Positions 18,210-57,048 of a stretch of DNA of 64,000 nucleotides are shown here, in pieces (the first letter of the stretch is position 1; each line of letters opens with the position of its first letter). Below the pieces are notes generated by a model. It was not told the DNA's origin and did not search any database. It saw only the letters and a program-made list of their open reading frames with translations. The translations under genes and the position numbers were made by a program. This DNA comes from Lingula anatina. Taxonomy: Eukaryota > Animalia > Brachiopoda. The stretch covers positions 34,925,967-34,989,966 of the forward strand of contig CM120640.1 in assembly GCA_051362555.1 (NCBI GenBank). Reading direction: 5' to 3'.

Positions 18210-20241
18210 ATGACCTATTTAAGGAGTCTGGTTACGGTTGCCATTTTAGCAACATTATACAAAGGTGAGTCGGATTTTTTGTCTTCATTTTAGCTATATT
18301 TCAGTTTCAAATATGGACGGAAAATATTGATCGCTTTGCTGATGCTGAAACCCAAACGAGGAGTCGGTTAATTTCAACCTTGGATGGGGTGTGACGTCAC
18401 AGAATGGCGGCCCAATTTTACACCTGTTTGTTTAAAATGAACTCTTTGGGTATCAAAAATTATTCAAATGCTATATCTAGGGTAGACACTGCAAGTAAAC
18501 CCAGGTTGCAGATCAACAGAATTACCATACATGGAGAATGATTTGTACTTATCCCGATATTAGGGTCATTTCAATGACAAACTTTGCGATTGCGAAATAC
18601 CCATGCAGGATCTAGGCATGCTAATCGACCAAGCTAGGTTTCTCAATTTTTTTGCATGTTTCTAATCGCAGTTTTAACTTAAAAAATATCACACCCACTC
18701 GATCTTTTTTATATTAGCTGTCAGAGAAAAATAAATTCTGCACTAAAACGGATAAATTAAACCAATGAGGCCTTGACGGTAATAACAGCATCGGGGTGTG
18801 CTTACTTTTAAAATGATGCAGCGTCAGACCGTCGTAGAAGGCTTATATGTGGGAAATGTGCCCTGTTATCCGGCTAATATCCAGAGAGAACTACGTTTTT
18901 GTCAATTGTGAGGACGTGTAGATCGGTGGAAAAACCCACTTGTTATTGCTGGGTACTTAAGCAAGTCAATATACCGATAATTAATCCAAGTTGATCATAT
19001 GAACCACATTGATCAAATGACCAACGATCTTGCCGGTCATGGTTTTTATGTTACAGGTCCTATCTGTTTGCATTATTTGTTTTTCCGACTTGAAATGATA
19101 TGTTAGGCCCTATCATGCTGTGTTTTACATCACTTTTGCATGTTTTAAATACATCATATTTATTTATTTAAAAAGAGTGAAGTGAAAAAAATGCATAAAA
19201 CCACAACCCTTATATCTTCGACTTTTTTCCTAAAATATTTGCTCTACCGATATTTTAAATTAGACAATACATGCAATTCTTGTAGAAAGGCATTGCAGAA
19301 AGCCTTTCCTTTCACATACGAAATATAAACCAATGTAACACAAACTGTGTCTTGTTATACTTGTGTGTGACATTTCAACATATTTTATCGATATTATTAC
19401 TTGAATCTTTTTTTTAATTCGATCTTTTTCGTAGTCACCTATGCAGTGGATTGCTACGAGTGCAACGTCTACCAAGGCGGTAATGGCTACCAGTGCCCCG
19501 AAGACTTCAGGGAGAGGGCAATTATCCAACGTCGCCAGGGAGGCGCCGTAGAAGACATCACCGAAGACACCCCAATCGATCGCTGGCTGGGCGAGGTTCC
19601 CATCAAGAGAGGGTGCGAGGCGTGCATGAAGTTCTACACCAAGGTGGAACAAAATCATAGGAAATACGAATTCACAAGTAAGTGGCATGGATTTGGGTTG
19701 ACATTTTCGTTCTTTTGAATATAGAAACATGATATCAATCGTGATGACGGAAATCTATTGGTGCCCTTGGCGTTATGTAATAAGTGAATGGGTCAACAGT
19801 CCCGTCAGCTATCTGACAGACAATAAAATAGTGTACGGTTTTGTATAATTGCACATAATATCTTGCCGCCATATAGAGAGAAAAGTAAAACAAAAATGAT
19901 AAACGGATACAAAAAACAAATTACGAAAAAAAACGATAAAAGGCTTCACAGTCACGAAATAAGAATGATTTATACCTTATTTTTAATTTTTCTTTAAACA
20001 ATTTTTACGTGTCTTTCCGTTTATTTCAGCTGCTACTGTCGTCTCCCGTGTCTGTGCCGGCAAGGAAATCCATCTGACCAAATACGATCTTAACAGCTGT
20101 AAGAAAATGGATGCCATTGGAGGTGTTAGCGTTAGATGTTTCTGCCAGACCGATAAATGCAACGGTGCCACTAAACTCGGAATCACGTTCTCTTTAGTTT
20201 TGTCCTTATCTTTGTTTGTTTTTAAGAGGTTATTCTTATAA
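18210..20241 (+). CDS. Ly6/uPAR three-finger protein #1 (quiver/sleepless-like, GPI-anchored), about 169 aa
   Basis: Exons 18210-18264 (signal peptide MTYLRSLVTVAILATLYK), 19435-19677 and 20030-20241, phase-1 introns. 10 Cys: CYEC..C..CEAC..C..C..CFCQTDKCN, then a hydrophobic GPI-signal tail. AATAAA at 21365. Confidence 0.92.
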
Positions 20242-26200: not shown

Positions 26201-29200
26201 AAACAACCTGTTAGTAGAAAAAAAAGCGTTTTAGTAAACCTCACCTCAATATGCAAAAATGAAGCAACAGATCTGGGTCACGTGGTACTGTGACGACAAT
26301 CACGATAAAGGTCTATGAGACTCAACTGAGCTGCATGGTGCATAAAGACGGAGAAGTTAAGGAAAGTTGTGTTGAACGGAGTTGAGGAATTTTCGTTATG
26401 CCTCTGTGTGTTGCCGTGGGATTCACCAAAATTGCAGCTCTCGTTGACAATCTTTCTTTGTCTGTGACGGTCTTCCGTGACTTACTTACTAACTTCGGTG
26501 TCAATAGTTGCGATGCTCTAGATCATGGTCACCTCAGGTGGTTTAGATCATATCAAGAGCTGGTAGTCTTTCAGATTAACTGTCATCAGTTGGCAAACTT
26601 ACTGATTGCTGATGCATTTTAAATGCATTGTAGTTGACCAAAAGCTCGTTTACAACAAACCTGTTAATTATGCACCGCTGCAATTCCCAAGCCAGGTAAT
26701 AACAGGTATGAAACTCGTCTTGGTGGGCTTTCATATTTTTCAATATATCTCATTTATTTCATGGGGTTATTTTATTGGTATTTGTAAATGACGTTAAATA
26801 TCAATACTTAAACAATTAAGTTCAAACACGGTCGCGAACATTAATAAAAGAAATTGCTCTCAGGGTATCTTGAAGCTTCCGTGGAAGAAAACGTGTTGAG
26901 GAAAAACAGGAAAAAGAGCGTTATATTAAAGAAAAAATGGGAACTGCTATAATAAAATGGTTCGTTATCCTAATTCGTTTATGCTTTGAGGATTTGTTTC
27001 TGAAGATAATTTCATCTGAAATATTAAATAATTTAAAAGATTGATTATTTTATAACTTGAAACGCAAATTCTGCGTCAGTACGCAATTTTTTTTTTTTTT
27101 TTTTTTTTTTGCAAATTTGTAAGCTTATAACACCGTGCTATAAAGATCTACTCAAGAAAAAAATTTGCTTGGGTAAAATTGAGTACGGAATGAACTGGAG
27201 ACACTTGGCTTGTCATTAAGTTTACATGAAAATATGTCAGGTAACTTTATACTGTCTTTGAAAGAGTAAAGATTGAAAGATAATTTTAGACAAACTTTGA
27301 CGGGGGAAATACCTACAAAGAGTAATGAGCTATTTCGCCAACATCTTGTTGAAAATTTTACACTGCAATTCTATTCAAATAAGCTAAGGAACTAATTGCC
27401 AAATTAATACTCTCATCACATAACAGGGGGGTAACCAGACCTGCAAAAATTGTACGCACATATTTTAAAAGATTACAAGCACATACAGCAAAATGTAAAC
27501 TTACGCAAAACATGAAGGACAGCGTAATCACAGCAAATGTACCTCATATAGTAGCTTAATTTCCATTAATAATAAAATCATCATTTAAGTCAAAAATATT
27601 CTTGCGATTTAATAACTATTTTAATTTACCCAGAACGGTATATTTATTTTAAAGGCGGTTAACTGAAATATAGTTTTATGATTTGTTTGTGAAAATTGCC
27701 CATGTCACCCTGTTAGTTTGGAGGTCTAAGCTGGATCAAGTCCGTGTTAAAATTCCTATGAAGTTGTGCAGGAAAAATTCTTCCTTTCTTTCTCTAGCTC
27801 CTCGATAAACCTGGTGTTCAGATTTTATCTAGTACCCCCAGGTCTACGGGAGCTGCGCTTTGAAACTAACGCACAGGTAGATTTTTACCTGAGATAACTG
27901 GAGTAAAGCTTAGATAGAGAGTGCGTTCGGTACAAGCAAGACAAATTGAATGCCATTTAACCCTCTAATTAAGAGGTAAAGGAAGTTCCAGTTAGATGGA
28001 TGATTAAGATAGGACTTGTAAAGGTAACGGGCATTGTTTACCTCAGTTTAATAAAAGTATGCAAGACGGAGTGTCAGCGGTTTAATAAAATAAATTTAAT
28101 TTCACAAATAACATGGACCTCATATGCAATAATCAACATTTCCCTTAACTCATTCAAATGCAGTGTTTTATACAACTTGGGATAACCATAATGAAATGCT
28201 TGTTAAAGAAATGACTAGACGGGAAATGGTTTTACACAGCTTCACGAGGATTTAGACCCTTCGGGTAAGAGATTTGAATGAGTATAAACTTTTATCAGAA
28301 GCCAGAGAAGTCATCTTACAGGTAGACAATGCAGCTCAGTTTGACAGCTAAGCACGCTCTGTTCTCCAGTGGCTCGATTGTCGTCATTGGACCACGTGAC
28401 CACGTAGCTCATTAACTCCCAGGCCGAGCAAATAGGACGTTTTTTAAAGCCAAAAATTTACAAAATGAGCTTTTAATTTGTGTATTTGGATAAAGATATC
28501 GTTAGTTGGGCATGTTTTCTGAAGAATATGTTCCGTTCAGGCCATTCTGACGGCATGAAGCAAACCCTTTAACGCAACCATAATTTGCTTTTTCTCCTGG
28601 GATTACTAGTTGTTGCAAAAGCATTATTGTGATAAACTGGGAAAAGCATTATTTGATTCAAATAACTTCTTTGGCAATCATATTGTGATGATAAAATATT
28701 ACGAAAGGATGGTATTAGGAATCATTTGAAAAAGCCCAAATTCTTGTGACCTAGGTCTAGAGCTTAGCCTAGCAAGAATTCATTTAAAATATCCTTGAAA
28801 ATTTAGCAGCTAAGTGTTATGTCTTATTTCCACTTCTTACTGCTCAAAATATAATCCATCTATTTATGCCAAGTATAAACTAGATAGTCCTGAGAAAAAT
28901 AGCCATTATTTTTTAAATGGTCCACATATTTAAAAAAAACCTTCATAATAGGACATTAGGCCATCTTCAAGTAATCAGCCTCTGTTCACAATTGTGTGAC
29001 TGCAGAAAAGAATCTATAAAAAATAAAAATTAAGAAAATTAAGTATCCAGCTCAGACAGTAGATTGGTGCATTTTTTAACGAATAAATTTCAACTTTTCT
29101 GCTCTTGGTCCCAGGTGAAGCTCGATTACTCCAGTGTTATGACTGTACCAGTGAGGACCATCTGGGCTGTAAAGACCCTTTCAATGCCACGGACTCGCTG

Positions 29201-29863
29201 CAGGTGTGTGACAGACAGCACGACGCGTGCCTTAAAGTTGTGGCCACAAACACCAAAATTGGAAATGATGGAACCAGACATGAAGGTGTGTGAAAAATTA
29301 CTTGTCACAAGATTTTAGTTTTACTTTTGTGCAATATCTTATTTATTGCCAAGTTTCATTATGTTAAATGCAGTGCTAGAAATTGAATTCAGCAATTATT
29401 TTGCATGTTCACTTTATAGTAATCATAAGTTAGTTCATTGAATTGCCATAATTTTTTTTTATTGAAGTCTCAACAATTTTATGTATGATGTCTGGTACTG
29501 AATTTTACATTGAAATCACTTTTCTCCATGGAAAACAATTCTTTGCAAAAATAGCTATTTCATCAAAACAGCTACCATGTTATGGTACGATTATAAACAG
29601 CATGACAGAGTGACAAGTAATTAATGTCTTTGTTTTTGTTTCCAGATGCTCGCGTAATAACTCGCCAATGTGCCAGCATTCCCACTGGTGGATTTGCCAA
29701 ACAGAACGATTGTTACAAGACGGAGGCATCCAATGGTGGGTATGTGGAACAGTGCTTCTGCGGTAGTGACGAATGCAATGGCACGAGGGAAAATAAATAC
29801 TCGTTAGGCATGCTGCTTGTCTGTGTGGTTGTGGTGGCCATGCAACTGAGTAGGAGGTTTTAG
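22563..29863 (+). CDS. Ly6/uPAR three-finger protein #2, most similar to quiver/sleepless, about 152 aa
   Basis: Exons 22563-22632 (MEIPVRALGLFAVFGALLTFCSQ), 29115-29285 and 29646-29863. CYDCTSEDHLGCKDPFN matches the CYxCxS..CxDPFN motif of the Sleepless family. CFCGSDECN followed by a hydrophobic tail. Confidence 0.92.
23161..23212. repeat. (TA)n microsatellite
   Basis: Seen directly. Confidence 0.95.
25315..25606. mobile_element. Palindromic MITE (possibly PIF/Harbinger-like) in intron 1 of Ly6 #2
   Basis: About 55-bp imperfect TIRs ggccccattcagaatggatgatcc... / ...ggatcatccattctgaaaggggcc, with TA on both flanks. Confidence 0.8.
26094..28568. mobile_element. Decayed Kolobok-like DNA transposon (about 2.5 kb) in intron 1 of Ly6 #2
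   Basis: ttaa|agg ... cct|ttaa ends with imperfect 15-bp TIRs. Subterminal inverted repeat ggtcacgtggtNNNNtgacgacaatc at 26276-26301 and 28376-28401. A THAP-like start (MPLCVAVG) lies at 26398. Confidence 0.6.
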
Positions 29864-32157
29864 TGGACCTCTGTTGACCGTCACACCAGAACCTCTGCTG
29901 ATGTTGCAGTGCTTCTCAGAGTGCAGAGATAGAAAAGGTACCAACACTAAGATAGTCCTCACACCAGCACACATACTTGGACAGGTGGTTAGCTGAAAAA
30001 TGTATTAGTGAAATCAACTGTTGGTGCCAAATTCATAATGAATTGTTAAATATAGATATTTTTCGGTGATTTTTACAATACTTTCGGCAAATCATGTTAT
30101 TTTTGCATTTGGTGTTTTGTTTATAGTGTGCATGTGCAAATAGATTTTCAGTTTGAAAATTGAAATTGTTCTATAGCATCCCAGAAATTTCTTTCAGTAC
30201 ATTCATTTGTTATTTGATATGTTATATATTTATGTAAAACGTATTCGCTTCAGCATGGGGATTTTTGCAATAAACATATAAACCAGTTTTAGTTTTTAAC
30301 TAAAATTAATTTGTGGGACATTAGTAATACCCATCCATCATTCCTGCTGTACATTTAGTGCCATGATATTTACAGTCTATAGCTGTAACTTGCCATAATT
30401 CTTAAGCTTCCAGATTTAAAGCCATATGCATTTATTGTGTTATGAAAAATATGATTTTAATATAGGTGCTTTGGGCTACCTTATAATTGTGCCATATTTC
30501 CTTGCTTGGCGGCACTTGCTGACAATTCAGGATATATCCATGAATCTTGTTTTTTACAGACAGACCAAGTTTCAATCTTGTCACTATTTTGATGCTTTAC
30601 TTAGATGATAAGATAGCCATGTATCATTACAGGTACATTTACAATAGATACAATGGACCAGACAGTAGTTATATTGAATATTGATAAAAATTAAAGAGTA
30701 CAATGTTTCAACAATACTTCTTAAAAGACTTATAAGCATTGCTGTTGTTATTGATGTGATTAAAAATAAGTATTTAATAGTTTACACATATTTAGGACTA
30801 TAAGAGACATAAGGTGGGTAACTACAATTCCAAAATGAGTAGATAATATATTATATGGAAATTTCCTAAGAAGATTTCTCTTCCGATGATAATTTGAAAG
30901 CTGTAGTAGGTAAATTTGGGATGTTTTGTCATTGATTGACATTGATATGACATGAGAATGCTACTTTAAAGATGAAAAAAATTAGTTCAACCTAGACAAA
31001 ATATGTTCATGTATAAATGCAAGACTCCGAGATAAAGATCACATAAGGTATTGGGAAAAAATCAATATCTGCTTTGATAGAGTATTTTGTGCCAGTAATT
31101 TGCCCTGTATACCTTTAAACCCAGATGTTATTCGAAGAAATCCACAATATCATAACGAGAAAATTACTCTCAGCAGCTTGCGTCTGTTTCCTGGTATTCA
31201 ATCTTTGAAACAAGCCATTGGTAATGATTGTAAATTCCAATCAGAAAGATTGCTCAGACACTTGGAATGGCAATGAAAGGGCTGTCTTCTCTGGTTCTTG
31301 TCTCTAGAGCTTCCAAAGCAATACATGTCGGTTATGTTGAAAACTGTTGGGTGACTGTATAATCTCTATGCAGATCATCTTCTTCCTGACACATAACAAT
31401 TGAGTCAGTTGCCGAGATCACTGCTTCTCTGTTGGTGCTCACACTGGGAGCTTTCTTCATTTGAATGAAGAATCTAGTCGGTTTTATGGGAAGCTTTTCA
31501 ATCCGAGTTGCAATTGGCTCTGTACTTATTAAGTCGGTTATCTGCATCGTTTTCATGACATTTGGTTTACTTCACAAATGGTAGTCAGTCAATTTCCTGG
31601 TTTTCAACCAGTTGTTTATTACCATTTCTATGATGGTTGGCATTTTTTTTTTTTAATTTCAAGGCAGTATCGAATAAGTTTGTGGGCCAGGTGGCATGCA
31701 GTCCACTAATAGCACCTACTAGTTCCCTCTAGCAGTTTGCTAACAAAACATTGGCCATCAGATTCCAAGATGCTTCTCAGCCCAGGGTTCTCTAACATTT
31801 TTTCATTCAGTACATATGTGATCCAGTTGGCTCACATTAATGTTCATGTTTTAGGTTTTCCTCTGATAGCTTACATAAGAATGATCTGACTACTTGTATT
31901 CTTTGAATAGTATCCTGAGCACCAAATCGTACCAGCCTTATACCAGCATATCATGTATATCAAATGTTGAACAATGTTCTGCATCAAGTAAATGGAAACA
32001 GGATGTTGTAAGCTGACTGAGATGGTTTGATTATCAGAATGGTTCTTCATAAAAGTTTTACCTGCATCAGTTGAATATTGATTGGTAAATTGGAGAGTTT
32101 TTCATTTAAACTACATGCAAAAGCAACTTAATAATTAATTTCCAGCAAACTTTTATC

Positions 32158-35263: not shown

Positions 35264-37850
35264 TCAGTGAAGCAACCTTAACAGGCAGGCTACAGATAAA
35301 AACAATGGCACCAATAATGTCAATTTTGAAACTGCCAGATTTCCGGCATGGTTACAACCATTCCAGTCATCACAAAAACAGTATGTACGCTGGGAGTCTT
35401 GTGTTTGTGATCCGGGATACACGGCGGAACTGGCAGAGCCACGCCCAGGAAGGCAGTAGTTATGTCTCCGATTGGTTGGCATGTCTTCCCGGTATATGGT
35501 GTTTTTCATCAGCTGGTTTAAGCAGCCTCTGGTTATTTGTTCTTGGCCTAAAATAATGAAAAGAAATAAAACAAATATATAAGTAAGAATTTAAGGTTTG
35601 TTGCAACACTTGAAAACAACCAGTGTTTCATGCAAAATCAAGTGTAATACATTCACTGCCTTACACAGGGAAATCATCAGAAAATCAAGACTTGGTGTAT
35701 TGTGCCTTGAAAAAAACACATTACAGTTACACTCTGTACATTTACAACACAGATTAGCAAAATTTAAGCACGACTCCACATTTCACAAAAGATTATATAA
35801 TCAATAATAAATTGTTGCTTCAAGCACACAAAAGCCTGACAAGTACTGTACACAAGACTATATATATGTGTGCATGTGCAAAGGATATGATCATAAAAGA
35901 CAACATATAAAATTGAAAACCATGCAAATGGTACAATTAGTACATTGCACATATATCATTCAGGATCTCAGCACACTGCAGGGAGTCCACACTGAAAATG
36001 CAGGTTGCAAATGCATGTTTTTTTTTCTTTTTGTGGGGAGGGGGGGGGGGTGTGTGTTTTGGCCAACTCCCCATGGGCAGTACCTTGTACCTACCCCTGA
36101 TATTGTCATAGATCTTAACACACATTGTATCGGCCCCGCATTCCCACCACTTCTGGAGATAGATGTCCAGCTTGTCATCACAACCTGGGGTGGTACTTTG
36201 ACAAGAATAACAGTAGCGGACCGCAGCTTCGGCTAGAAGTAAAACAAATTAATGTGGAGATTAAGCGCTAGCCAGCTACGGGTAAACTCACCGTTGACTA
36301 CTTGGTAAACTTTCACACACATTGTCTGTTCTCCGCATTCGACCCATCGCTGGACCCACTCGCTGAGAACATTCCCACACCCTGGCTGGTTTGATGTACA
36401 TGAATAACAGTATGACGGGGGTATGGCATCTGCTGCTAAAAAAAGCAAAACATTGGCTGCTAGGCTACTGCACTGAAATCTGGGTTAGCAATCAAGATTG
36501 TACGTTATATACTCTACTTCATTGAAGTGCCACAACACCAACTCAAAATGCTTGACAGAGTTCTAAAAGAGGTGCAACATGCAAAATTGTGAGATGACTA
36601 AGAAGTCTTTTTTTTTTAATACAAGAAGATTGCTTGACACAAGTAATAAAATTGTAATACAAATCCTTGCAAAAGGCATGCAAAAACATTCAATATTATT
36701 TTTTCAGATTCTTATCAAAGCATTTGGTTAGAAATATTGTAATCAAATACTGAACCTTGTTAAAATAATAATTGTTTTCTAGTTAAGCCAAAGATCAGTA
36801 AAAAAAGCTTTTCATATTATATTTGTGAGCCCAAAACATGCAGACTGTATTCTGGTATATTTCAAGCAAGCTTGATCTAAATTCATAATACCTAGTTGAT
36901 TTAATTATGCAGCAAAGAGAAATTGTGTACATTATATTTATTTTGTGAAAAGAAAAAAGGTGCATTCTCATAAAAAAGAATTATATGAAAGTGTTAGCCG
37001 AGAGCTAAATGTGCAAAAGGGGGCCGTAGCAATAGTCCGAAGGTTCAATAGTCCGAAGGTTCATTGGTCCGAATATTCACTATAGAACCTTCGGACCAAA
37101 AAATCGATGAAAATGTTACCACTTTTCGGACCAATGAACATTCGGACTATCGAGACGCCCCCGAGCTAAAAATGTGTTAAATGTTATTCAGCCATCGACA
37201 TAAAATCCTTCCACTGCAACCATGCCGTATCAGTTAGTAAACGATCTACTGAAAACAGTTCAAAATGGTAAAATTTTGTTTGCAAATATATTTATATAAA
37301 TAAAGCAATTATTAATGCTGTAAAAATCGAAATTAGTGAGTTAATAAATAATATCAAACGTATTTCAAAATAATGAAGAAAAAATGATAAATAATTATAA
37401 ATGAGAGCAAGTATGCTGAACACGTACATATATAAGAGAAATTCTTTAAGATACAAAGCAATAATTACGCAGTTTAAAATAGTGGGAGGTCATATACACA
37501 AAAGTTACTCGCCCACTCAAAAAACAATTAATTAAGGACACAAAAGCGGAATCCCTTTACCATTATTTAGTCATACGATAAATATACACAACGGTAGTTG
37601 CATTTAGTGGCATATAACTTGAGTAATAAATTAACGTGAACGTTCTTAAACGTTCAAGCTTGAGTTTCATAAACAACCGATTTTCAAGATGGCGGCAACT
37701 TAACGATCATTCCTAACAGGTGAGGCATTTTGAACACAGGTAAGTCATTTTGAAAACCCTGTCAAATAAAGAATTTTAAATGCACCAAAACTTACCTTGA
37801 AATATATACAAAATAAAAACTAGTATTACGGATGCAGAAAAAGACTCCAT
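35264..37850 (-). CDS. Ly6/uPAR three-finger protein #3 (GPI-anchored), about 158-160 aa, with duplicated alternative exon 2
   Basis: Exon 1 37850-37796 (MESFSASVILVFILYIFQ), exon 2a 36435-36292 or exon 2b 36232-36095, exon 3 35547-35264 (ITRGC...YC...YCFCDDWNGCN plus GPI tail). All introns are phase 1, and either exon 2 gives 10 domain Cys. Confidence 0.92.
36095..36232 (-). CDS. Ly6 #3 exon 2b (paralog of exon 2a)
   Basis: ttctag|CC... encodes EAAVRYCYSCQSTTPGCDDKLDIYLQKWWECGADTMCVKIYDNIR, then G|gtaggt. 138 nt. Confidence 0.9.
36292..36435 (-). CDS. Ly6 #3 exon 2a
   Basis: tttag|CA... encodes ADAIPPSYCYSCTSNQPGCGNVLSEWVQRWVECGEQTMCVKVYQVVN, then G|gtgagt. 144 nt. Confidence 0.9.
37019..37162. 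mobile_element. Small MITE with internal 16-bp subterminal repeats in intron 1 of Ly6 #3
   Basis: gggggccgtagc(aatagtccgaaggttc)x2 ... gaacattcggactatcgagacgccccc forms an inverted arrangement. Confidence 0.65.
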
Positions 37851-38658
37851 CTTCCCTTATTCTGCAAAAAACTACTCAAATTCTTAACAGGGTCATAAGA
37901 CAGGTATGTGTGTCATCTCGTTCAAGGTAAAAGTAGGTCATGACTCATGCATATTTAAGTACTGGTTTGTTCTCCGTGTAGCGGACACGAGTTTTAAAAG
38001 TCAGGAATGTGAGTCGCGTAAACTGCACGACAGTAGATTACTAGTACGAATCATGCTAGCAGTACTAAGTATTCTCTCATATTATCCAGCAAATGAGTGT
38101 TATTGATATATGTAAATAACAGATTGTGGGGTAATCTTGTTATATGTTTTGGTGGTATATTTCCAGTTATATATGCATTACCTGTATAAATGAATTGATG
38201 AAATATAGGCCTAATAAAACTATATACAGTAAAAAATGAAAATGTAGTATTCGTATATAGTCGTGAATGTTTACATTTCATCCTTAAAAATCCTTGAAAT
38301 TCCATTCAATTGTGTTGCACTAGGCTGCATCAATGAATATATCGTTTTTTCAGTATATTTTAGGCCTATTTTAATACGGTTTCGAAATTAAAAAAATTTT
38401 GACATTCAAAAATCAACAGAAGATTTTCTGAAAAAAAAATAATAACAACAACAACAACAAAGGAATCTTGGCGACACGACGTGATGCAACAATTAAAATT
38501 TCATTATGTTGTTGAGACGTTTTTTAAAAAACACCATGGAAACGTCGCATGCGCAGAAAACAATTAAATCTGAATAGACAGATACCGAGTTGCGATGGCG
38601 CGACACTCAAGCTGTCAGTGACTAGTGTTTATTTAGTTTGCGTATATTTAAATATAAA

Positions 38659-46440: not shown

Positions 46441-49400
46441 GTGAGGGTGAGATGCGTGTGCTTCAATCCGTCCGCTGGGTCATCTGCGTATGATTTTTCT
46501 TAATAACTGAGTACACATTATCCACTTATTGTTATATCACACTTATTATTATATTGCACCAAAACTATGAAAGAGATCACTGAACTATAGAAATCTTTGT
46601 TTTTACTCTTTTTTTTTTTTTCAGTACTGTAACACGCAAACAAGACAGCGCTGCTCGAAATGTCCGCCAGGTTATGGGGCAGAGAAAAAATGCACCAATA
46701 CTCAAGACACCTTTTGCGTACCTTGCAAAACGGGGACCTTTTCAAAAACCTATTCAAGAAACCAACCATGCCAAAAATGTTCAGAAAAGTGTACATCCAG
46801 ACATTTCATCCACAAACAGTGCACAAAAACCCGTGACGTCATATGTGCACGGTGTGACGTATATGATGGCGACATAACGGAAGACTTTAAGAGAAGCTGC
46901 AAAAAAGAAGCTGAAACCTCGTTTCTGTCATTTTCCACTCTCTGGTATATGCTTGGCTACACGGATGATGAAGATTCAGACGAGGCGACAGACACAAAAT
47001 TAGCTGAGGTTTCTCGCAGGAGCACTTTCTCCTATCCTGTATCTCAATCGCCTCCCGATCAAAACACTTTCAATAACAACACAGATTTTCTTAACCAGTC
47101 GAATACGACTGTGGATACCAATGGAACTGGTGGGGACGGTTTTTTGCTGGATGAGAGAAATGACGGTAGGTCGAATAAATCAATTCCGATCACACCGAAT
47201 ATGTACTTACTTTTGGAAGGTGAAAGAAAGAAAGGCACTTACTGGAGTATTTTGTTTCCCACTTGTAAATATACTAGAATGAAAAAAAAAATGATCAATG
47301 GTGAATTCTCAAAAAAAAAATTTAACAAGTTTCCCGTGTCAATACTTCGAATTACAAAATGTATGAGATTCGTTTTTTCGTGACATACACTTACCAATAT
47401 TTGCAGTAGTGAATTTAGATTTAAATTATGAGAAAAATTGGCCTTTCAAATATAAAAGTTTAATGCTAATGCATTACTTCCATGACCAGTACTTACTACA
47501 GTTAAAATAGGGAGAACTAGAGGCAGACTGACAGTTTACAATTTATATTACATGTATGACAAGTCTAAATAAAATATTTTAATATAGAAATATGTGTAGT
47601 ACGACACAAATATGTTAATAGATTGAGATTGCAAAGGCATAAACTTGAACACAAGTAAAATAAGTGAACACGCGTATAGAGCGTAGAAAATACATATAGA
47701 AATTCGAGAAATACATTGCGATGAATAATGGATGAATATACATGTACTTTATATATAAATTGTTCCTTGGTTGGCGACGCTTTTCTAATTCTTGCACTTG
47801 TTTGATTGGATCATTGGAAGCGAGTAATTGTATACCATAAAATCGCCATTAAATGACATAGTATGCCAGTTCAGAAAAGGGTAATTGGGAGTCAGCATAC
47901 ACAGAAACAGTGAGTTCATATGCGGTAGCTTCCTCCGTAAATGTCAGTGGACACGGAAACGTCACCTGCTATGAAGATGTTAAAGAATGGGATTGATCAC
48001 TTTACAGAACATTCAATTTCTGTGTCATAAGAATCTGGATTGTTATGATAATAATTTCTTTTTTTATTTCGTAGTGACAATATCTTTTGAAGGAAATGCA
48101 ACGGATTCAAATCCCAGCAATATCAACATATTTCAAAATGTAAGTTGTACATTCTCACAACGCTAGCAAAATAATCAGTTGAATCCTTTACAAGCACGGA
48201 AAAAAGAATTACACAAATTTGCAATAGGTTACACCTTCATTACAATTACGAATGCATTCTGTGATGTCAATTATTTACGACAATGTCCCCTGATGATAGT
48301 CACATTTACTTCCTTCTTTTTTAGATGCAAATAGGTCATAAGGCACATTTTAAAAGACAACCGGCTCTTTTAATTAGAAGGTTGACTACAAATTTGTCAC
48401 TGTTCGTACTCAACATCCGTCTATCTTCTGAAGTCCGTTCTCGTTGGGTTTTTATCTTTCATACTTCTATACTGTATCTCTTATGTGCAGATAACTAACA
48501 GTCTAGACGATCCCAATGCGCAAATAGATCCAGAGGACATGGACGACCAGAATGACGACGCTCAAAATTACGGAGTGGTAGCAGGGGCACTGGTAGCCGC
48601 AGTGGTATTTTTCTCGCTAGGAGCGTGCAGTAATAGATTCAAGCATATCAAGAAACTTTGCGGCAAGAAAGAGGTAGAGCACTAACGTCAAACAGTTATA
48701 CTCATTCGAATCATTTTGACCAAAAAGAAATCAAATTATGTTTTTTGAATTTTATTTTCACCGATATTTCCAATTATACGTGCTGGATTGTTTAAATTAC
48801 GTTTGATTTTGACGATGATGTATAAAATATTGCTCATTTTTTCTCCAAATCTGGCATGATTACTTTCTGTAATATAGATCGGCTAATTATAGTAATCATA
48901 AGTCACAGTTTTATAATTTTCAACACAACAGAAGAAATATAGAAATAAGCTCTTTTTTCTTGGATATTTCAGAACGAGAATAGCCCCAGAAAACCTCACA
49001 AGTCCGATTTCTTTTTACACAGATCAAGAAGGACAGAATATGAGACGGGTAGGAGTGTAGAGTGCACCTGTAGTAGACTAGTGATATCTAATATAACATT
49101 TTTGTTATCAATTAGATTGGTTGATCAGAACCGATCGCGCCTTACAAGACGTTATTAACTTTTTCAATTTCGATTTGGCGAGAAGAGAAAATAAATAGTT
49201 CGGAAAACCTTTTTTTTAACTTGGATTATGTAAATGTGTAAGTACTGTCCTCATTTCTGCGTTTAATTCTAATTTTACAAATTTTCACAGACAAGCACAT
49301 GCAGGCCAATGGCTTTCTTCCGAGGCAATCCGTCACAGGTCACAGTTTAAGGGCCTCGGCGGACCCTGCCGTTCCTGGTCCTAGCGTCGTGGACACACCT

Positions 49401-49763
49401 CAGGTCCCAGGGAGTTCCATCGATAGCATCGAGTCAGCCTCCGATGTCACCGGTTCTTCACACGAGAGAATGAATAACAATCATTTTAAACGAAACAATA
49501 TAAAAGATAGCCGAGAATTGCTTAGGAGCTCTATAAAATCGAAATCTTCCGAAGGGACGAAGGAGGGAAATAACGGGAATCAGGATTTCACAGCAAATGG
49601 CGATTTCAGGGAATCTTTTCGGCCCTCAGTTATTGAAACTGATATTTTGGATTACAGAGAAGGCCGAGTGAATCCTGACACGAATACTAAAGATGATATG
49701 CAAAACACATCCAACACGCCGCAGCGCGTAGAGGGGGTCGACGAGTCTGATTATAGAGCGTAA
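43790..49763 (+). CDS. TNF receptor superfamily member, type I membrane protein, no death domain seen, about 460 aa
   Basis: Exons 43790-43834 (MPRFLLLLIIAMSLK), 46625-47165, 48075-48139, 48491-48673, 48973-49048 and 49291-49763. Cysteine-rich domains (CRDs) CSKCPPGYGAEKKCTNTQDTFCVPCKTGTFS...CQKCSEKC...CTKTRDVIC. N-glycosylated stalk and TM segment YGVVAGALVAAVVFFSLGAC. Confidence 0.88.
45924..46331. mobile_element. Non-autonomous element with inverted ends and a 3' perfect hairpin
   Basis: aatcatccg(c/t)gatagc at 45924 and 46275, with an inverted copy ending at 46331. Confidence 0.55.
46404..46438. repeat. (GT)n microsatellite
   Basis: Seen directly. Confidence 0.95.
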
Positions 49764-51317: not shown

Positions 51318-54300
51318 ATGGCCAAGCCGATGGTATTGCCAGTTATGGTCCTACTGCCGTTTTTGATGTGCTACACACAGTGAGTGAACGACAACATTAA
51401 ACCTAAAACTGCATGTTATTTAGTTTTTTCCTTACTAGAACAGATACGTATGTATTTTGTTATTGACACGAGTGATGTTTTCGTTTCTGATTATCATGAC
51501 CTTTTCTTAAACTAAAAAGCAGCTAACGTTCCAACTTTTAAAAGAGGAATGTACCTGGTTTTGTTATTAAGCAAATAATGTTTTTTTTTTTTTTTTTTTT
51601 TTGGTACTAGAATTCAAGATTACTTGTTAACAAAAAAGGCAAACTGTTTCCAGGAAATATATCAGCGGTGAAATTCACCATCATAAAAACAAGGGTGTTA
51701 TCTTTTACCCTTAGCTTTGAAGCAGAGCTCACCATGAAACGTTGGAAATATTTTTTCTAAAAAACAGACCTGTGTATTAACTGTTTAAAAATGAATATCT
51801 TTGTGTAATATTTCTTATCAATTCAACCTTCGATGTCATCTGAAACACAATATATTTTCTATTTGATGAAGAATGGTTTGGCACGAAAGCAGACAACTTA
51901 AGTTTCTTCACTTTAAAATACCTGTCCTTAATTGCAAATAAGGTAAGAAGGTTAAATTATGGGAGGGGGATCCAGCTATTAATCGTGAAGGTCTGTGGAC
52001 TTTTTTATGATAAAAATATTAAATATGCAAGAAAAAATTTTAATCATAAAAGTGTCAATGTATATTTTAGTAATTCACTCAACGAGGTTAGACCTTAATT
52101 AAGCAGATTTAATTTTCCCTGAAATTGCAACACCTTCGATCTCCAAGCTATACCATATTCAAAAACGCTGGCAAAGTTACGATCTACGAACCATTTTCTA
52201 ATTTTGAACAACTCTCGTAATTTGAGCACGGGGACAAGTGAATTCGATTAGTGGGGGTAAAAGATTACAAATTTTGAGCTCGAAATAAGTTTATAAATCG
52301 TAGTATTCTCAATGAGTTTGGACAGGAAACCTTTATAATAAAAAGTAATTTTTCTGAAATTTCTAAGAAAAAAAACCGTTTGTTGTATAAAGGTCCAAAG
52401 CGCTGGTAGATAGGGGACGGTGGAAGACCGAATGCAAATAATTCAAATTATCGATCGTGATGTAAAGGCGCCCTTTTCATGATAAATTTGTATGTCCACT
52501 GGCTCATTTCCTCTCATATTTTATGTATCGTAACAAACAAAAGTTGACATTTTATTACAATGCGAATCAGCTAGATAACAATAAATCACAGTTCATGCCC
52601 TTTTCTGTTGGAATTGTCATTATATACCTTGTTTGTGGTAACTGTGCACTAGGGAATGCAGAAATATATTGCGTTACCTTTGAGATGCTACTTACATAGA
52701 AGGGCCATCGATTGATAATCCTGTTACATATACAACCTTTCGATAATTCATAACCAGCTATTGTTTCATCACATTATATGACATTAAGCTCAACCCGAAA
52801 GAATTCCGGTTAAATTCACATATACATTTATATACACAGACTCTTCATTTAATTCGTTTGGGTACCTCCTAGTGGTCCATTTTGATTTGTGGGATTATCG
52901 GTAATTTACAAGAAAAAGCAATTGTCATGTTCAAGGAAGCAAGAATTATATTAGAGGAGAGAGGCAGAATCACCCAGAGGCAATACTATACCAGAATTTA
53001 ATCACAGAGTCATAATCTCGGATAGCTGCCACAAACCCGAATAGCTTCATTTGTTCTTCAAGGTACTGAGTTAACCAGTTTCTAGTGCTTGTTGGCTCAG
53101 GTTAGCCTTCCCCTTCGAAAAGGCTGCCTGCCTCGGCTCATCCCGTGTAGTCAGCTGGACCTCTCTCCTCCTTACAATATGCCCTAGAGCATACCGACAG
53201 TGCGCAATGGGATGCAAAACAAGAAAAAGACAGACCAGCCTACTTGCTCATTTTTTTGTGCATTTTGCCTCTGTTCCTCAGATAAATTGCTGACAGTGTA
53301 CTCTTTTCAACGGCACATCTTGTGTAAAAAACCTCCTCTAGTATTCCTCTTGATCCTGTTCCAAGGGAAGTAGTCTGTCTCTAAATCAACCCCTTTTCCT
53401 TCCTTCCCCTTCCCTCGCCTCTCCTGGAGGGGAGGCTCGTCTAGTCATTAATTTTTTGTCCATTGCAGCGCTATGTCGATGAACGATGGAACATCAAGCA
53501 CCTCTGCTTCGGTTAGCATCTCATCTGGAAACAACACAGCGGATAACTATAGTGATGATTATGACGTTTATGATTATCATTATGAGTATACATGGAGCTT
53601 CGAAGAAGAAAAAAATAACATTCTGAGTAGATTGGGACATGATTACGATTCCCAAAGGAGACCGTATATGACGAGTGGTGAGTATCCTTTTCATTGCTTT
53701 CCTCCTCTCCCCCTCTCTCTCTCTTTCTCTCTCTCAGACCGCACTCCTTTTTCACCGACCACGTTGCATGCACATGCAGCAAAATTGGACAATTCTGAAT
53801 AAAATTTGTTAAAACCAACCCTAGTTTTAAAGGCCTGTATACATGAATTTCACCCCTACACAATAACTAGCAGTAACTCGCACCCACCTATTTATTCTAA
53901 GCTTTTAAGTTAAAACTTTTATGTTAAAACATCATTGTCGTGTATTCCCTTTCTCTTATCAGGTGTCTCAGATAATGTTACCGTTGGGATAACGATTGAT
54001 ACCTTCAGTGATATAAGTATTACGAACATGGTAAGTTTGAAAGACACATGTATAAATAACCAAAAAAGGTCTTTGCTTAAAGGGATAATAACTCTTCGTT
54101 TTGGCCAAAAAATGAATTTTCCTGGAGTGAACAACAATTTTTCCATACTTACCATTGGTTAATGAATCCATTTTTACATTCAAAGTTAGTCTCTGGTTTT
54201 TTTCTAAAAAGTTTGGTTTTTTGTTAAAATCTCTTAAGAGATTATAACAGAGTACAGCCATCAGTGGAGGTCACGTGATCTGAAGACAAGCTCAGATATC

Positions 54301-57048
54301 AAAATTATAGCTATAGCTGCCGTTTTTGTGGTAAAACAGAATATATTATATTTCTATGAGTTATTCACAATGTTTTTATTGTGAAATATAGATATCATAC
54401 GAAGAGTTATTATCCCTTTAATATTCCCATTCTGTATTTCAAAGCGGCTGTGAAAGCACCCCTTTTGTTACTTTCAATTTAACGTCCAATTTGAAGTGTG
54501 AAACTGTCACACGGTCACATTTCAACGGCATTCTGAGTTCTATAACAATTTATTATCTACTTTGTATAATTACCCTATATGGTGGGGATGGACTGTGAGA
54601 AGAGCAGTTTGTTCCAACTATCCAGGGTTATAAAAAAGGAATAAGACGCTTCAAAGTATCGCCGATTGCCGCATGATGGTCATTACATTTTATATCGTTA
54701 GGATTTTACGGTCGGGATATACCTACTACAGAGCTGGCGTGAACCTCGACTGGCTTCCGCAGACCGACACAGCCAACCCATATTTCTAACCTTTGGGGAG
54801 ATTTTTTCAAAAGCGTGGATGCCAGATTTGTATTTCTTGAAGGAGAAAAAAGCAAAGCGGCACAGCATTACATATCCCAACGTGATGTTACAGATCAATC
54901 CAGACGGAAGGATGGTGTATTCCCAAAGGTATGTGTATTGCAACAATACACGAATAAGTGAAGAGATCTTTATTTCATATAAACATCACACTTAGTGACT
55001 CCCCTTTTTTCGTTCAGTTGTGATGTCCAAAATTAAGTTGACATAAATTTTGAAAACATACTGTACAGGGTGACAAGAAAGAACCCATAAAACTTTTATT
55101 TCAAGAAAGTTGCTGGTCTTAAACTTCAGTATGTGCACGATCATTCTCATAAATTTTTCATAAAAGCGACCAAAATATCCAAAATGAAATAAGCTCCATG
55201 AAATAAGTGGAGACATACGTGCATACATCGCGGAAAATTATCAATTACTCGAACTCGTTCCTCGTTCGGGATTTCCCTGATTTTTTTTTCTGTGGTTGCC
55301 GCCTGAAGTTCACTAATTGTTTCAGATATCATCATTATCCTTGAGATACCCCCATAGATAAAAATCTGTGTGGTTCAAGTTTGGTGAATGCAGTCCCCAC
55401 TGTATGACTAACTTCCTGCTTATCATGAAATTTCCAGACCCCCACAAAATTATACCAAATGTCCGACCTGGTACCTGAATAAATTAATGCATAGAATTCT
55501 AGCTAGGTGTCATTCAATTTAGTCCACAGCAGAATGTAAATATTGCATGCATCAGCAGCAGCATCAGGCTCAGTTGTAAAAAGTACAATTTTCACTTCAT
55601 TGCACTAAACATGCCGTCTTACGTTTTATTTGTGTGCTTTGTTCATAGGCTCTCTTTGACAATTGGCTGCCAGTACAATTTCCTGAGGTTCCCCATGGAC
55701 ACCCAGTTCTGCAAAATTCAAATGTCTAGTTGTAAGTAAAAAAAATTAGCCTAAGCATATATCTTTAGCATTTCAATTCATTTCAATAGCATTTCAATGA
55801 AACACTTTTGTCTTATAGATAACATGCAACATCGACTTCAATTTAAAAAACGCAGTAATAACAGTTATCTTAAAACGTCCATTTTTCTCATTAATGTTGT
55901 GTACTTACTTGTGTGTCTCGTACAGCTGCATCGATTTTATCTTCATTTATATTTTTCATGAAATAGATGCTTACACAGTGGAATCTCTACAACTGCTCTG
56001 GGACGAAAAAGAACCCATACGTTTCAGTAAAAGTGATCTTAATTTTCCGGAGTTCGAACTTGTGGATATAGAAACCGATTCCGGTCTTATTTTGGATAAA
56101 CGAGGTAATTGCATATGTTGATATATTTTTTCTTGATGACAAGTTCGATGTTCTTGCCTAAATACTCAAATATACAACATTTAACCTTTTCAGTTTCTTA
56201 GATGAAATAAAAGAAGTTTTTAATTCTCTTTTATTCTAGGCAACTACTCCGTATTGACCGTAAATGTTCTCTTCTCCCGGGATCTGCGCCCCTATCTTCT
56301 GAATGTCTACATCCCAAGCATTGTCGTGGTTTTCCTGGCTTTCATGAGTATGTGGATTGACCCACGGGCAGTTCCAGCTCGAGTGACCATAGGGGTCATC
56401 ACTGTGCTGACCACTATGACACAGAGCGTCAACACCCAGCAAGGATTGCCAAAAGTGTCCTACGTCAAGGCCGTGGACGTGTGGCTCGCTACCTGCCTCG
56501 TTTTCGTGGTGGGGGCCATGTTTGAATATGCCTTGGTCAATGTTATGATTCAGAGGCTGGATGACCGAAAGGCCAGGGGAGAGATCGTCGTAAGAATACT
56601 ACTATTCTGAACTGAAGTTTGAATCGAAAACTTTAATTGACCCCCGACACTACTCGGTGACTTATAATATTCCCAAAACGCTTTTTCTTGTTGCCAAATT
56701 TGAACAAACCAACACGCTATTTCAAACCTTAACCTTTAGTTACAGCCACTTTTATGTTTACTTTTTTATTTTATTCTGGTAAAAGAGAATTAAATGACAC
56801 TCTCACATTTCTAAACTGTTTTGTTCTTTATCAATATTTAGGACGTCAAGCCAGCGCTGAATAGCATCAGTCCTTTATCTTCGGACGCCAAATACCTGGC
56901 CGGTACACCGAAACAGATCTACTGGAACCCTGCAAAGGTAGACAGCATAGGGAGGGCGCTGTTCTTTCTCTGCTTCGCATTGTTCAATATCATTTACTGG
57001 ACTGTGTATCTCAGCCTTTCAATGGAAGATCGGAAACCGCGGAAATAG
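51318..57048 (+). CDS. Cys-loop ligand-gated chloride channel subunit (GlyR/GABA-A/GluCl superfamily, ligand unknown), about 447 aa
   Basis: Exons 51318-51379 (signal MAKPMVLPVMVLLPFLMCYT), 53469-53677, 53963-54030, 54702-54928, 55649-55731, 55967-56104, 56240-56589 and 56842-57048. Motifs: WMPDLYF, Cys-loop CQYNFLRFPMDTQFC, M2 AVPARVTIGVITVLT, LPKVSYVKAVDVW, M4 FNIIYW. The 68, 83 and 138-nt exons match sizes typical of GABA-A/GlyR genes. Confidence 0.95.
54081..54417. mobile_element. 337-bp TTAA-flanked MITE (Kolobok-like), copy 2
   Basis: Perfect 19-bp TIR agggataataactcttcgt / acgaagagttattatccct with TTAA TSD. Confidence 0.92.

What the first reader, a model, noticed from the sequence alone, without database searches (positions are those of the whole stretch)
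36095..36435. Duplicated exon 2 predicts mutually exclusive splicing that swaps half of a three-finger (Ly6/sleepless-like) domain
Seen: two adjacent phase 1-1 exons (144 and 138 nt) each encode Cys1-Cys5 with identical Cys spacing. They align without gaps at 22/41 identities (YCYSCTSNQPGCGNVLSEWVQRWVECGEQTMCVKVYQVVNG vs YCYSCQSTTPGCDDKLDIYLQKWWECGADTMCVKIYDNIRG). Both have intact splice sites and no stops. The spacer is only 59 nt, with branch-like cttaat about 31 nt from the donor, while every other intron modelled here is at least 135 nt. Known: a short donor-to-branch distance sterically enforces mutual exclusion (e.g. alpha-tropomyosin), and in the LU fold C4 pairs with C6, so including both exons would leave an unpaired Cys. 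Inference: one gene makes two GPI-anchored isoforms with different finger I and half of finger II (one more acidic, DDKLD) on a shared finger III, which could switch receptor or channel specificity.
Basis: partly seen in the sequence, partly recalled or inferred. Interest (0 to 1): 0.88.

Follow-up and report, generated by a model that had tools for sequence, protein, structure and literature searches.

The report
Either-or exons in brachiopod Crimpled-like gene
A lamp-shell (Lingula) gene for a small three-finger cell-surface protein carries two copies of its second exon, and RNA reads show each message uses one copy or the other, giving two proteins with different first and half-second fingers; this is a real but familiar kind of splicing switch, and the protein likely works at cell junctions rather than being a sleepless-type channel regulator.

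Summary
Confirmed with RNA. Exons 2a (36435-36292) and 2b (36232-36095) are real duplicates (21/40 aa) in a Lingula anatina Ly6/QVR-family gene. In 8 RNA runs, 2,343 reads join exon 1 or exon 3 to a single copy (2a share 0.59-0.73 in 6 well-covered runs); no 2a-to-2b joint is listed and the 59-nt spacer has depth 0-2. RefSeq already predicts these isoforms (X1-X3). Both exons are 3n, so decay cannot explain the exclusion; crowding on the short spacer is the likeliest cause (about 0.6), but Lingula's shortest spliceable intron is unknown and Capitella's median intron is 57 nt. The fold model puts the exon joint at the tip of finger II. The closest relatives are crimpled-like (septate-junction Ly6), not sleepless, so a channel-specificity switch is unsupported; both forms occur together in every well-covered sample. 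The duplication looks lineage-specific (weak tree support). The scan noted a similar exon pair before in an arthropod Ly6 gene. New member of a known kind.

The parts
37796..37918 (-). Exon 1: 5' UTR from about 37918 and 55 coding nt (ATG at 37850), signal-peptide-like stretch, phase-1 donor
   Evidence: reads end at 37914-37919; joints at 37796
36292..36435 (-). Alternative exon 2a (144 nt; 141 nt from the second acceptor at 36432), Cys1-Cys5, finger I and rising strand of finger II; RefSeq X1/X2; major form
36233..36291 (-). 59-nt spacer, GT...AG, no joint across it listed; branch-like A at positions 31 and 43 from the donor
36221..36281 (-). Predicted 14-bp hairpin: spacer 36281-36268 pairs with 36236-36221 across the 2b acceptor; marginal (z -1.75) and weakened by read alleles
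36095..36232 (-). Alternative exon 2b (138 nt), Cys1-Cys5; RefSeq X3; minor form
35264..35547 (-). Shared exon 3, coding part: falling strand of finger II, Cys6-Cys10, finger III, hydrophobic GPI-signal-like tail, stop at 35266-35264; 3' UTR coverage runs on to at least 34600

Best explanation
This is a tandemly duplicated exon 2 of a Lingula three-finger (Ly6/QVR-family, crimpled-like) gene that is spliced one copy at a time, likely because the 59-nt spacer is too short for the 2a donor and the 2b branch point to be used together. Shown: both copies are spliced to exon 1 and exon 3, about 2:1 in favour of 2a, with no listed 2a-2b joint (about 0.97). Inferred (about 0.6): U1 on the 2a donor and U2 on a branch point only 31 or 43 nt away cannot sit together, so whichever exon is defined first wins; the consensus-like donor and long U-tract of 2a, and perhaps a weak hairpin over the 2b acceptor, would set the ratio. 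Predicted: the two proteins share the Cys6-Cys10 half and a GPI-type tail and differ in finger I and the rising strand of finger II. Inferred from relatives (about 0.4): the protein helps build septate junctions as fly Crimpled does, and the two forms tune its contact with a partner.
For: Joint reads X1/X2/X4/X7: e1>2a 108/123/0/115 (both acceptors), 2a>e3 225/288/2/66, e1>2b 32/68/0/76, 2b>e3 90/122/3/48; no 2a>2b or e1>e3 row although skips of 25 and 107 nt were listed. X3/X8/X9: no joint inside 35950-36550, spacer depth 0-2 against 13-323 in exon bins, loose ends lead only to exon 1 or exon 3. Double inclusion and double skipping both keep the frame open, so decay is not the filter. RefSeq X1-X3 match; a search with 2b among proteins of 80-2000 aa found only X3, no two-exon form. 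Read variants in the two exons: 6 of 9 well-supported ones are synonymous against 20% expected (p 0.003; 6 of all 13 rows, p 0.03). Model of the 2a form: pLDDT 83.5, hairpin 58-65/68-75 with the exon joint at residue 67; best fold matches are three-finger domains. A profile of 34 arthropod crim-type proteins scores both forms 70-72 bits, the two neighbouring Ly6 genes 29 and 13.
Against: The branch point is not mapped and Lingula's minimum intron length is unknown; Capitella (median 57 bp) and Dimorphilus (66 bp) splice such introns routinely (PMC7854359). The listing threshold (3 reads, 1%) allows up to about 2% double inclusion. For 2b alone the synonymous excess is not significant (2 of 3, p 0.09). 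Crimpled orthology rests on similarity (32% to Tribolium crim) and database names, with no test against all ~101 Lingula three-finger proteins (PMC13719153) or a full family tree. No fold match reached E 0.001. The 2b form was folded only without an alignment and failed (pLDDT 43). No binding partner, tissue or GPI anchor was tested.
Confidence: 0.72

Rival explanations
1. Exclusion is enforced by RNA structure: the 5' part of the spacer pairs with the 2b acceptor (14-bp stem), or docking-selector pairings as in Dscam choose one exon.
For: The stem is the best partner for both arms in the whole gene (-22 kcal/mol against -15 and -17 for the next), covers the acceptor AG, and folds better than 192 of 200 shuffles; none of 7 control splice-site regions did.
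Against: z is only -1.75, found after the fact. The alleles that most reads carry at 36222 and many at 36225 break two pairs (-20.9 to -16.0 to -15.5 kcal/mol, equal to the shuffle mean) unless the intron compensates, which reads could not show. No docking-selector inverted repeat stands out in 35500-37850 apart from a repeat element. One stem over 2b would lower 2b, not by itself forbid 2a+2b.
Confidence: 0.15
2. Splicing-factor control: repressors or activators pick one exon per cell type, so the 2:1 ratio in bulk RNA is a mixture of tissues that each use one form.
For: The 2a share differs among the 6 well-covered runs (0.59-0.73; chi-square p 0.0007, reads counted as independent). Regulated choice is common for such exons (PMC4165533 passages). 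It is compatible with steric exclusion.
Against: No run is near 0 or 1; the spread is small and follows study as much as anything; 3'-side counts alone do not differ (p 0.14). Runs carry no tissue label here.
Confidence: 0.25
3. One reading: a sleepless/Lynx-like modulator whose two forms target different ion channels or receptors.
For: Pfam QVR above cut-off; in fly QVR/SSS loop 2 alone is needed for Shaker and nAChR binding (PMC4735452), and the forms share only 3 of 8 residues on the rising strand of loop II; fly Babo isoforms with exclusive exons prefer different ligands (PMC11195991).
Against: Pfam QVR is a broad family; of 20 phmmer hits looked up by name, those with a specific gene name are crim or crim-like, others carry only generic 'quiver/sleepless' labels. 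Crimpled acts in septate junctions (PMC8006247). No partner was tested.
Confidence: 0.15
4. The two forms are functionally interchangeable: a tolerated duplication kept in frame by shared structural constraint, with no difference in partners.
For: Both forms are present together at similar levels in all 6 well-covered runs; both score alike against the crim profile; divergence between copies is mostly under constraint (pN 0.38, pS 0.63).
Against: A redundant copy would be expected to decay, yet both are intact after large synonymous divergence (dS about 1.4, dN about 0.5) and are both used in the more diverged animals of runs X7-X9.
Confidence: 0.25

Closest known systems
RefSeq Lingula anatina LOC106172012 / LOC106165014 isoforms X1, X2, X3 (XP_013398535, XP_013398536, XP_013398538)
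   Same: Identical proteins: X1 and X2 use exon 2a (two acceptors), X3 uses 2b.
   Different: Automatic 'uncharacterized' models; I found no paper on them.
Drosophila Crimpled (crim) and crim-like Ly6 proteins of nemerteans, annelids, octopus, flatworms, tardigrades
   Same: Closest sequence group (Lineus 45%, Tubulanus 41%, Owenia 45%); same 10-Cys pattern; fly crim is needed for septate junctions (PMC8006247 passages).
   Different: No other pair with a shared C-half and a divergent N-half among 150 parsed domains; the tick crim isoforms differ at the ends, not in this exon. Function in Lingula untested.
Drosophila baboon (babo) exon 4A/4B/4C
   Same: Mutually exclusive exons swap the ligand-binding part of a receptor ectodomain (PMC11195991 passages); type I receptor ectodomains have the LU signature (PMC6600238 passages).
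   Different: Babo is a transmembrane kinase with three exons and known ligand preferences; here a single small domain, two exons, no known ligand.
Sterically enforced exclusive exons (alpha-tropomyosin, OGDH 4a/4b, C. elegans egl-15 and let-2)
   Same: Donor-to-branch distance under 50 nt; the five C. elegans clusters with too-short spacers also have 3n exons.
   Different: Vertebrate cases use distant branch points in longer introns; worm spacers are under 40 nt. A 59-nt intron is ordinary in some invertebrates.
Drosophila QVR/SLEEPLESS
   Same: Same Pfam family PF17064, GPI-type Ly6 layout.
   Different: Not the nearest group by search; no channel interaction tested.

Membership tests
Mutually exclusive duplicated exons (criteria of Hatje et al. 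2017, PMC5740500) | Neighbouring internal exons of similar sequence, length and frame | tested here: met
   144/138 nt, phase 1-1, 21/40 aa
Mutually exclusive duplicated exons (criteria of Hatje et al. 2017, PMC5740500) | Junction reads from each exon that bridge the other | tested here: met
   980 reads 2a>e3 and 331 reads e1>2b over 7 runs
Mutually exclusive duplicated exons (criteria of Hatje et al. 2017, PMC5740500) | No read joining the two exons | tested here: met
   None listed in 8 of 8 runs (6 well covered); threshold 3 reads and 1%
Steric-hindrance class of exclusive exons | Donor-to-branch-point distance under about 50 nt | tested here: inconclusive
   Candidates at 31 and 43 nt; branch point not mapped
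Steric-hindrance class of exclusive exons | Spacer below the species' shortest spliceable intron | tested here: inconclusive
   8 other modelled introns are 135 nt or longer, too few; no genome held
NMD-dependent class of exclusive exons | Double inclusion shifts the frame | tested here: not met
   Both exons 3n; the two-exon form stays open
Ly6/uPAR (LU) single-domain proteins | Ten-cysteine pattern ending in C-x-C...CN | tested here: met
   Ten conserved Cys columns in alignment A2; Pfam QVR 37-38 bits, cut-off 27.3
Ly6/uPAR (LU) single-domain proteins | Three-exon gene, phase-1 introns, intron at the tip of loop 2 (PMC6600238) | tested here: met
Ly6/uPAR (LU) single-domain proteins | Three-finger fold | tested here: met
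   2a-form model pLDDT 83.5; top Foldseek rows are TGFBR2 ectodomain, three-finger toxins, uPAR, probability up to 1.0 but E 0.02 at best
Ly6/uPAR (LU) single-domain proteins | Disulfides 1-5, 2-3, 4-6, 7-8, 9-10 and GPI anchor | not tested
   Model coordinates were not inspected; 1-5 and 4-6 pairing is recalled; hydrophobic ends are seen in the sequence only
Crimpled (crim) subfamily | Closer to crim than to other Ly6 groups | tested here: met
   Top named hits are crim-like; arthropod-only profile 70-72 bits against 29 and 13 for neighbours
Crimpled (crim) subfamily | One-to-one orthology across the whole Lingula Ly6 set | not testable with these tools
Crimpled (crim) subfamily | Needed for septate-junction assembly | not testable with these tools
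   Bench test
QVR/SLEEPLESS channel modulators | Binds and regulates Shaker and nAChRs through loop 2 | not testable with these tools
   Only family-level likeness

The most novel reading that the evidence does not exclude
Lingula turned a conserved single-form junction protein into a two-form switch: each cell type picks one front half, so one Crimpled-like gene builds two kinds of septate junction or binds two different partners; and the self-contained front-half exon of three-finger genes is a cassette that animals have duplicated independently several times (here, an arthropod Ly6 gene, babo) to vary binding fingers on a fixed base.
Probability: 0.2. Interest if true: 0.62.

Novelty: new member of a known kind. 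Interest (0 to 1): 0.36.

Why it matters
It is a clean, RNA-verified case of exclusive splicing that swaps half of a single small three-finger domain, which my paper searches did not find described for a Ly6 gene. The pair is a natural finger-swap experiment on a crimpled-like protein whose partners are poorly known, and a direct test of whether a 59-nt intron is too short for a brachiopod spliceosome. The mechanism class is well known and the isoforms are already in RefSeq, so the surprise is modest.

Tried and rejected
X4 and X5 barely cover the exons and carry no weight. Word-based searches with exon 3 and exon 2b found only the Lingula proteins. Single-sequence folding of the 2b form failed. 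PDB sequence searches gave nothing real. NMD as the filter: rejected. A third exon copy, or duplicated exon 2 in the two neighbouring Ly6 genes: none found. An ancient pair shared with arthropod crim, suggested by short motif likeness: not supported; 2a and 2b group together (83/76, weak, 42 columns) and no second pair appeared, though one search listed only 120 of 441 hits and merges proteins above 50% identity. The original crimpled paper was not held. Two searches for Lingula's minimum intron length gave no figure. The second Atlas look-up did not complete.

Full report
Observation. The minus strand holds a compact gene: exon 1 (coding 37850-37796), exon 2a (36435-36292, 144 nt), a 59-nt spacer, exon 2b (36232-36095, 138 nt) and exon 3 (35547 to the stop at 35264). 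All sites are AG/GT and phase 1; joined to exons 1 and 3, either copy gives an open frame of 160 or 158 aa with ten cysteines. The copies align without gaps at 21/40 aa and 70/121 nt, and the 2a-2b match (E 2e-12) is the only one below E 0.8 in the window.

Source. Exon 3 and exon 2b match Lingula anatina proteins at 100%. RefSeq has three isoforms at two loci with identical proteins, LOC106172012 and LOC106165014: X1 (2a), X2 (2a, one residue shorter) and X3 (2b). The search with 2b among proteins of 80-2000 aa found only X3, so no two-exon form came up.

RNA. Eight of nine listed raw-read runs from three studies were laid. In X1, X2, X4, X7 the joints were e1>2a 108/123/0/115 (of these 31/18/0/17 at the second acceptor 36432), 2a>e3 225/288/2/66, e1>2b 32/68/0/76 and 2b>e3 90/122/3/48. 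No 2a>2b and no e1>e3 joint was listed, while skips of 25 and 107 nt elsewhere were, so a 59-nt skip was detectable. In X3, X5, X8, X9, laid on 35950-36550, no joint at all was listed, depth in the spacer was 0-2, and the listed loose ends at the exon borders read into exon 1 or exon 3 (X3 105/232/56/112, X8 66/95/39/39, X9 68/72/60/33 in the order e1>2a, 2a>e3, e1>2b, 2b>e3; 7 further loose-end rows not shown). The total is 2,343 single-exon junction reads in 7 runs; the listing threshold leaves room for about 2% double inclusion at most. X4 and X5 have almost no coverage. The 2a share is 0.59-0.73 in the six well-covered runs: both forms occur together, with no sample-level switch. Reads of X7-X9 are mostly 90-99% like the window, so the pattern also holds in more diverged animals.

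Constraint. Of 13 variant rows in the two exons, 6 are synonymous; dropping 4 rows with under 10 reads in every run leaves 6 of 9, against 20% of sites (p 0.003; all 13 rows p 0.03). 2a alone gives 4 of 6 (p 0.02), 2b alone 2 of 3 (p 0.09). Between the copies pS is 0.63 and pN 0.38: an old duplication with both copies intact.

How exclusion works. Both exons are multiples of three; the two-exon and no-exon forms stay open, so nonsense-mediated decay cannot remove them and the block must act at splicing (inference). The spacer's branch-like A lies 31 or 43 nt from the 2a donor, under the ~50-nt limit used for human exon pairs (PMC5740500 passages; PMC7969005 passages). In C. elegans the five clusters with unspliceable spacers also have 3n exons (PMC4165533 passages). 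Eight introns that I modelled in three other genes of the window measure 135-1170 nt (352, 360, 1170; 285, 671, 720, 235, 135 read), which fits but is a small, unverified sample. Against: Capitella's median intron is 57 bp and Dimorphilus's 66 bp (PMC7854359 passages), and Gyrodactylus has modes at 32 and 58 bp (PMC4040987 passages), so 59 nt is not too short for every spiralian. I put steric exclusion at about 0.6. A 14-bp hairpin can pair the spacer's 5' part with the 2b acceptor (z -1.75, 8 of 200 shuffles as good; none of 7 control regions below z -0.4), but alleles common in the reads weaken it to the shuffle mean unless the intron compensates. It may bias the ratio; it is not shown. No docking-selector pair stood out.

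The protein. Both forms pass the Pfam QVR cut-off (Atlas agrees). A model of the 2a form from 127 aligned sequences has pLDDT 83.5, with a hairpin at 58-65/68-75 and the exon joint at residue 67, the position known for LU genes (PMC6600238 passages). Its best structural matches are three-finger domains, although none reaches E 0.001. The forms share 11 of 23 residues in finger I and 3 of 8 on the rising strand of finger II; 2b is more charged rather than much more acidic. The 2b form has no usable model. Disulfides, signal cleavage and GPI anchoring were not tested; the 4-6 pairing is recalled.

Relatives. A full search gave 56 proteins. The best are spiralian: Lineus and Tubulanus 'crim-like', Owenia, Octopus, flatworms, none with an isoform label among the ten looked up; weaker ones are arthropod crim. 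A profile from 34 arthropod proteins of this group scores the Lingula forms at 70-72 bits, like other spiralian members, and the two neighbouring Ly6 genes at 29 and 13. Fly crimpled is needed for septate junctions (PMC8006247 passages; the original paper was not held). So the nearest characterised relative is a junction protein, not sleepless. Loop 2 is the working finger in fly QVR/SSS (PMC4735452 abstract and sections 10 and 14), which keeps a partner-tuning role plausible, but nothing here points to channels. Among 150 of 197 fetched proteins that could be split into halves, only the Lingula pair has the same C-half with a divergent N-half; this is limited by capped lists and clustering. 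A tree of the exon-2 half (27 rows, 42 columns) joins 2a and 2b at 83/76, not starred: a lineage-specific duplication is favoured, not shown.

What is known. Tandem duplicated exclusive exons are a well-described class. The closest functional precedent is fly baboon, whose exclusive fourth exons encode ligand-binding domains with different ligand preference (PMC11195991 passages). Searches combining Ly6, sleepless/quiver, crimpled and exclusive or alternative splicing (listings only) showed no paper on such a swap in a Ly6 gene; a 2026 survey of invertebrate three-finger proteins counts 101 in Lingula and has no mention of splicing, isoform or exon in its main text (PMC13719153 passages). LY6G5C appears in a list of human annotated exclusive-exon clusters (PMC6071210 passage), not followed up. 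PMC4476152 passages added nothing. Supplements were not read; genome-wide exon catalogues there could list a Ly6 case. The scan's own notes report a duplicated exon pair in an arthropod Ly6 gene and duplicated last exons in another; these are unchecked, and I could not tell whether the first is the same gene group (no sequence match).

Verdict. Real, RNA-verified, already modelled automatically in RefSeq, ordinary in mechanism class, with an unstudied twist on a crimpled-like protein. New member of a known kind; interest 0.36.

Noticed in passing
window 18210-20241 (+) and 29115-29864 (+): Two more Ly6/QVR-like genes with the same phase-1 layout and a single exon 2 (243 and 171 nt); with the focal gene they form a loose three-gene cluster. 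The first has a long insertion in finger I; exon 1 of the second was not located.
   Followed up: partly
window about 53600-57000 (+): Cys-loop ligand-gated ion channel gene (Pfam Neur_chan_LBD and Neur_chan_memb); the Pro-Ala-Arg motif before M2 suggests an anion channel (motif meaning recalled), not an nAChR.
   Followed up: partly
window 46571-49760 (+): TNF-receptor-like gene: two TNFR_c6 repeats, a likely transmembrane exon near 48386-48682.
   Followed up: no
window 37020-37162: Small repeat element in intron 1 with 38-nt terminal inverted arms and internal 16-nt repeats; RNA reads from other copies pile on it on both strands.
   Followed up: no
window 36432-36435 (-): Tandem acceptor (NAGNAG) on exon 2a, used by about 15-30% of e1>2a reads; removes one Ala near the likely signal cleavage site.
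   Followed up: yes
window 36222: The assembly's base is nearly absent from RNA reads of all covered runs; this synonymous site sits in the predicted hairpin.
   Followed up: partly
RefSeq LOC106172012 and LOC106165014: Two loci encode identical X1-X3 proteins: an uncollapsed haplotype or a very recent gene copy; reads cannot be assigned between them here.
   Followed up: no
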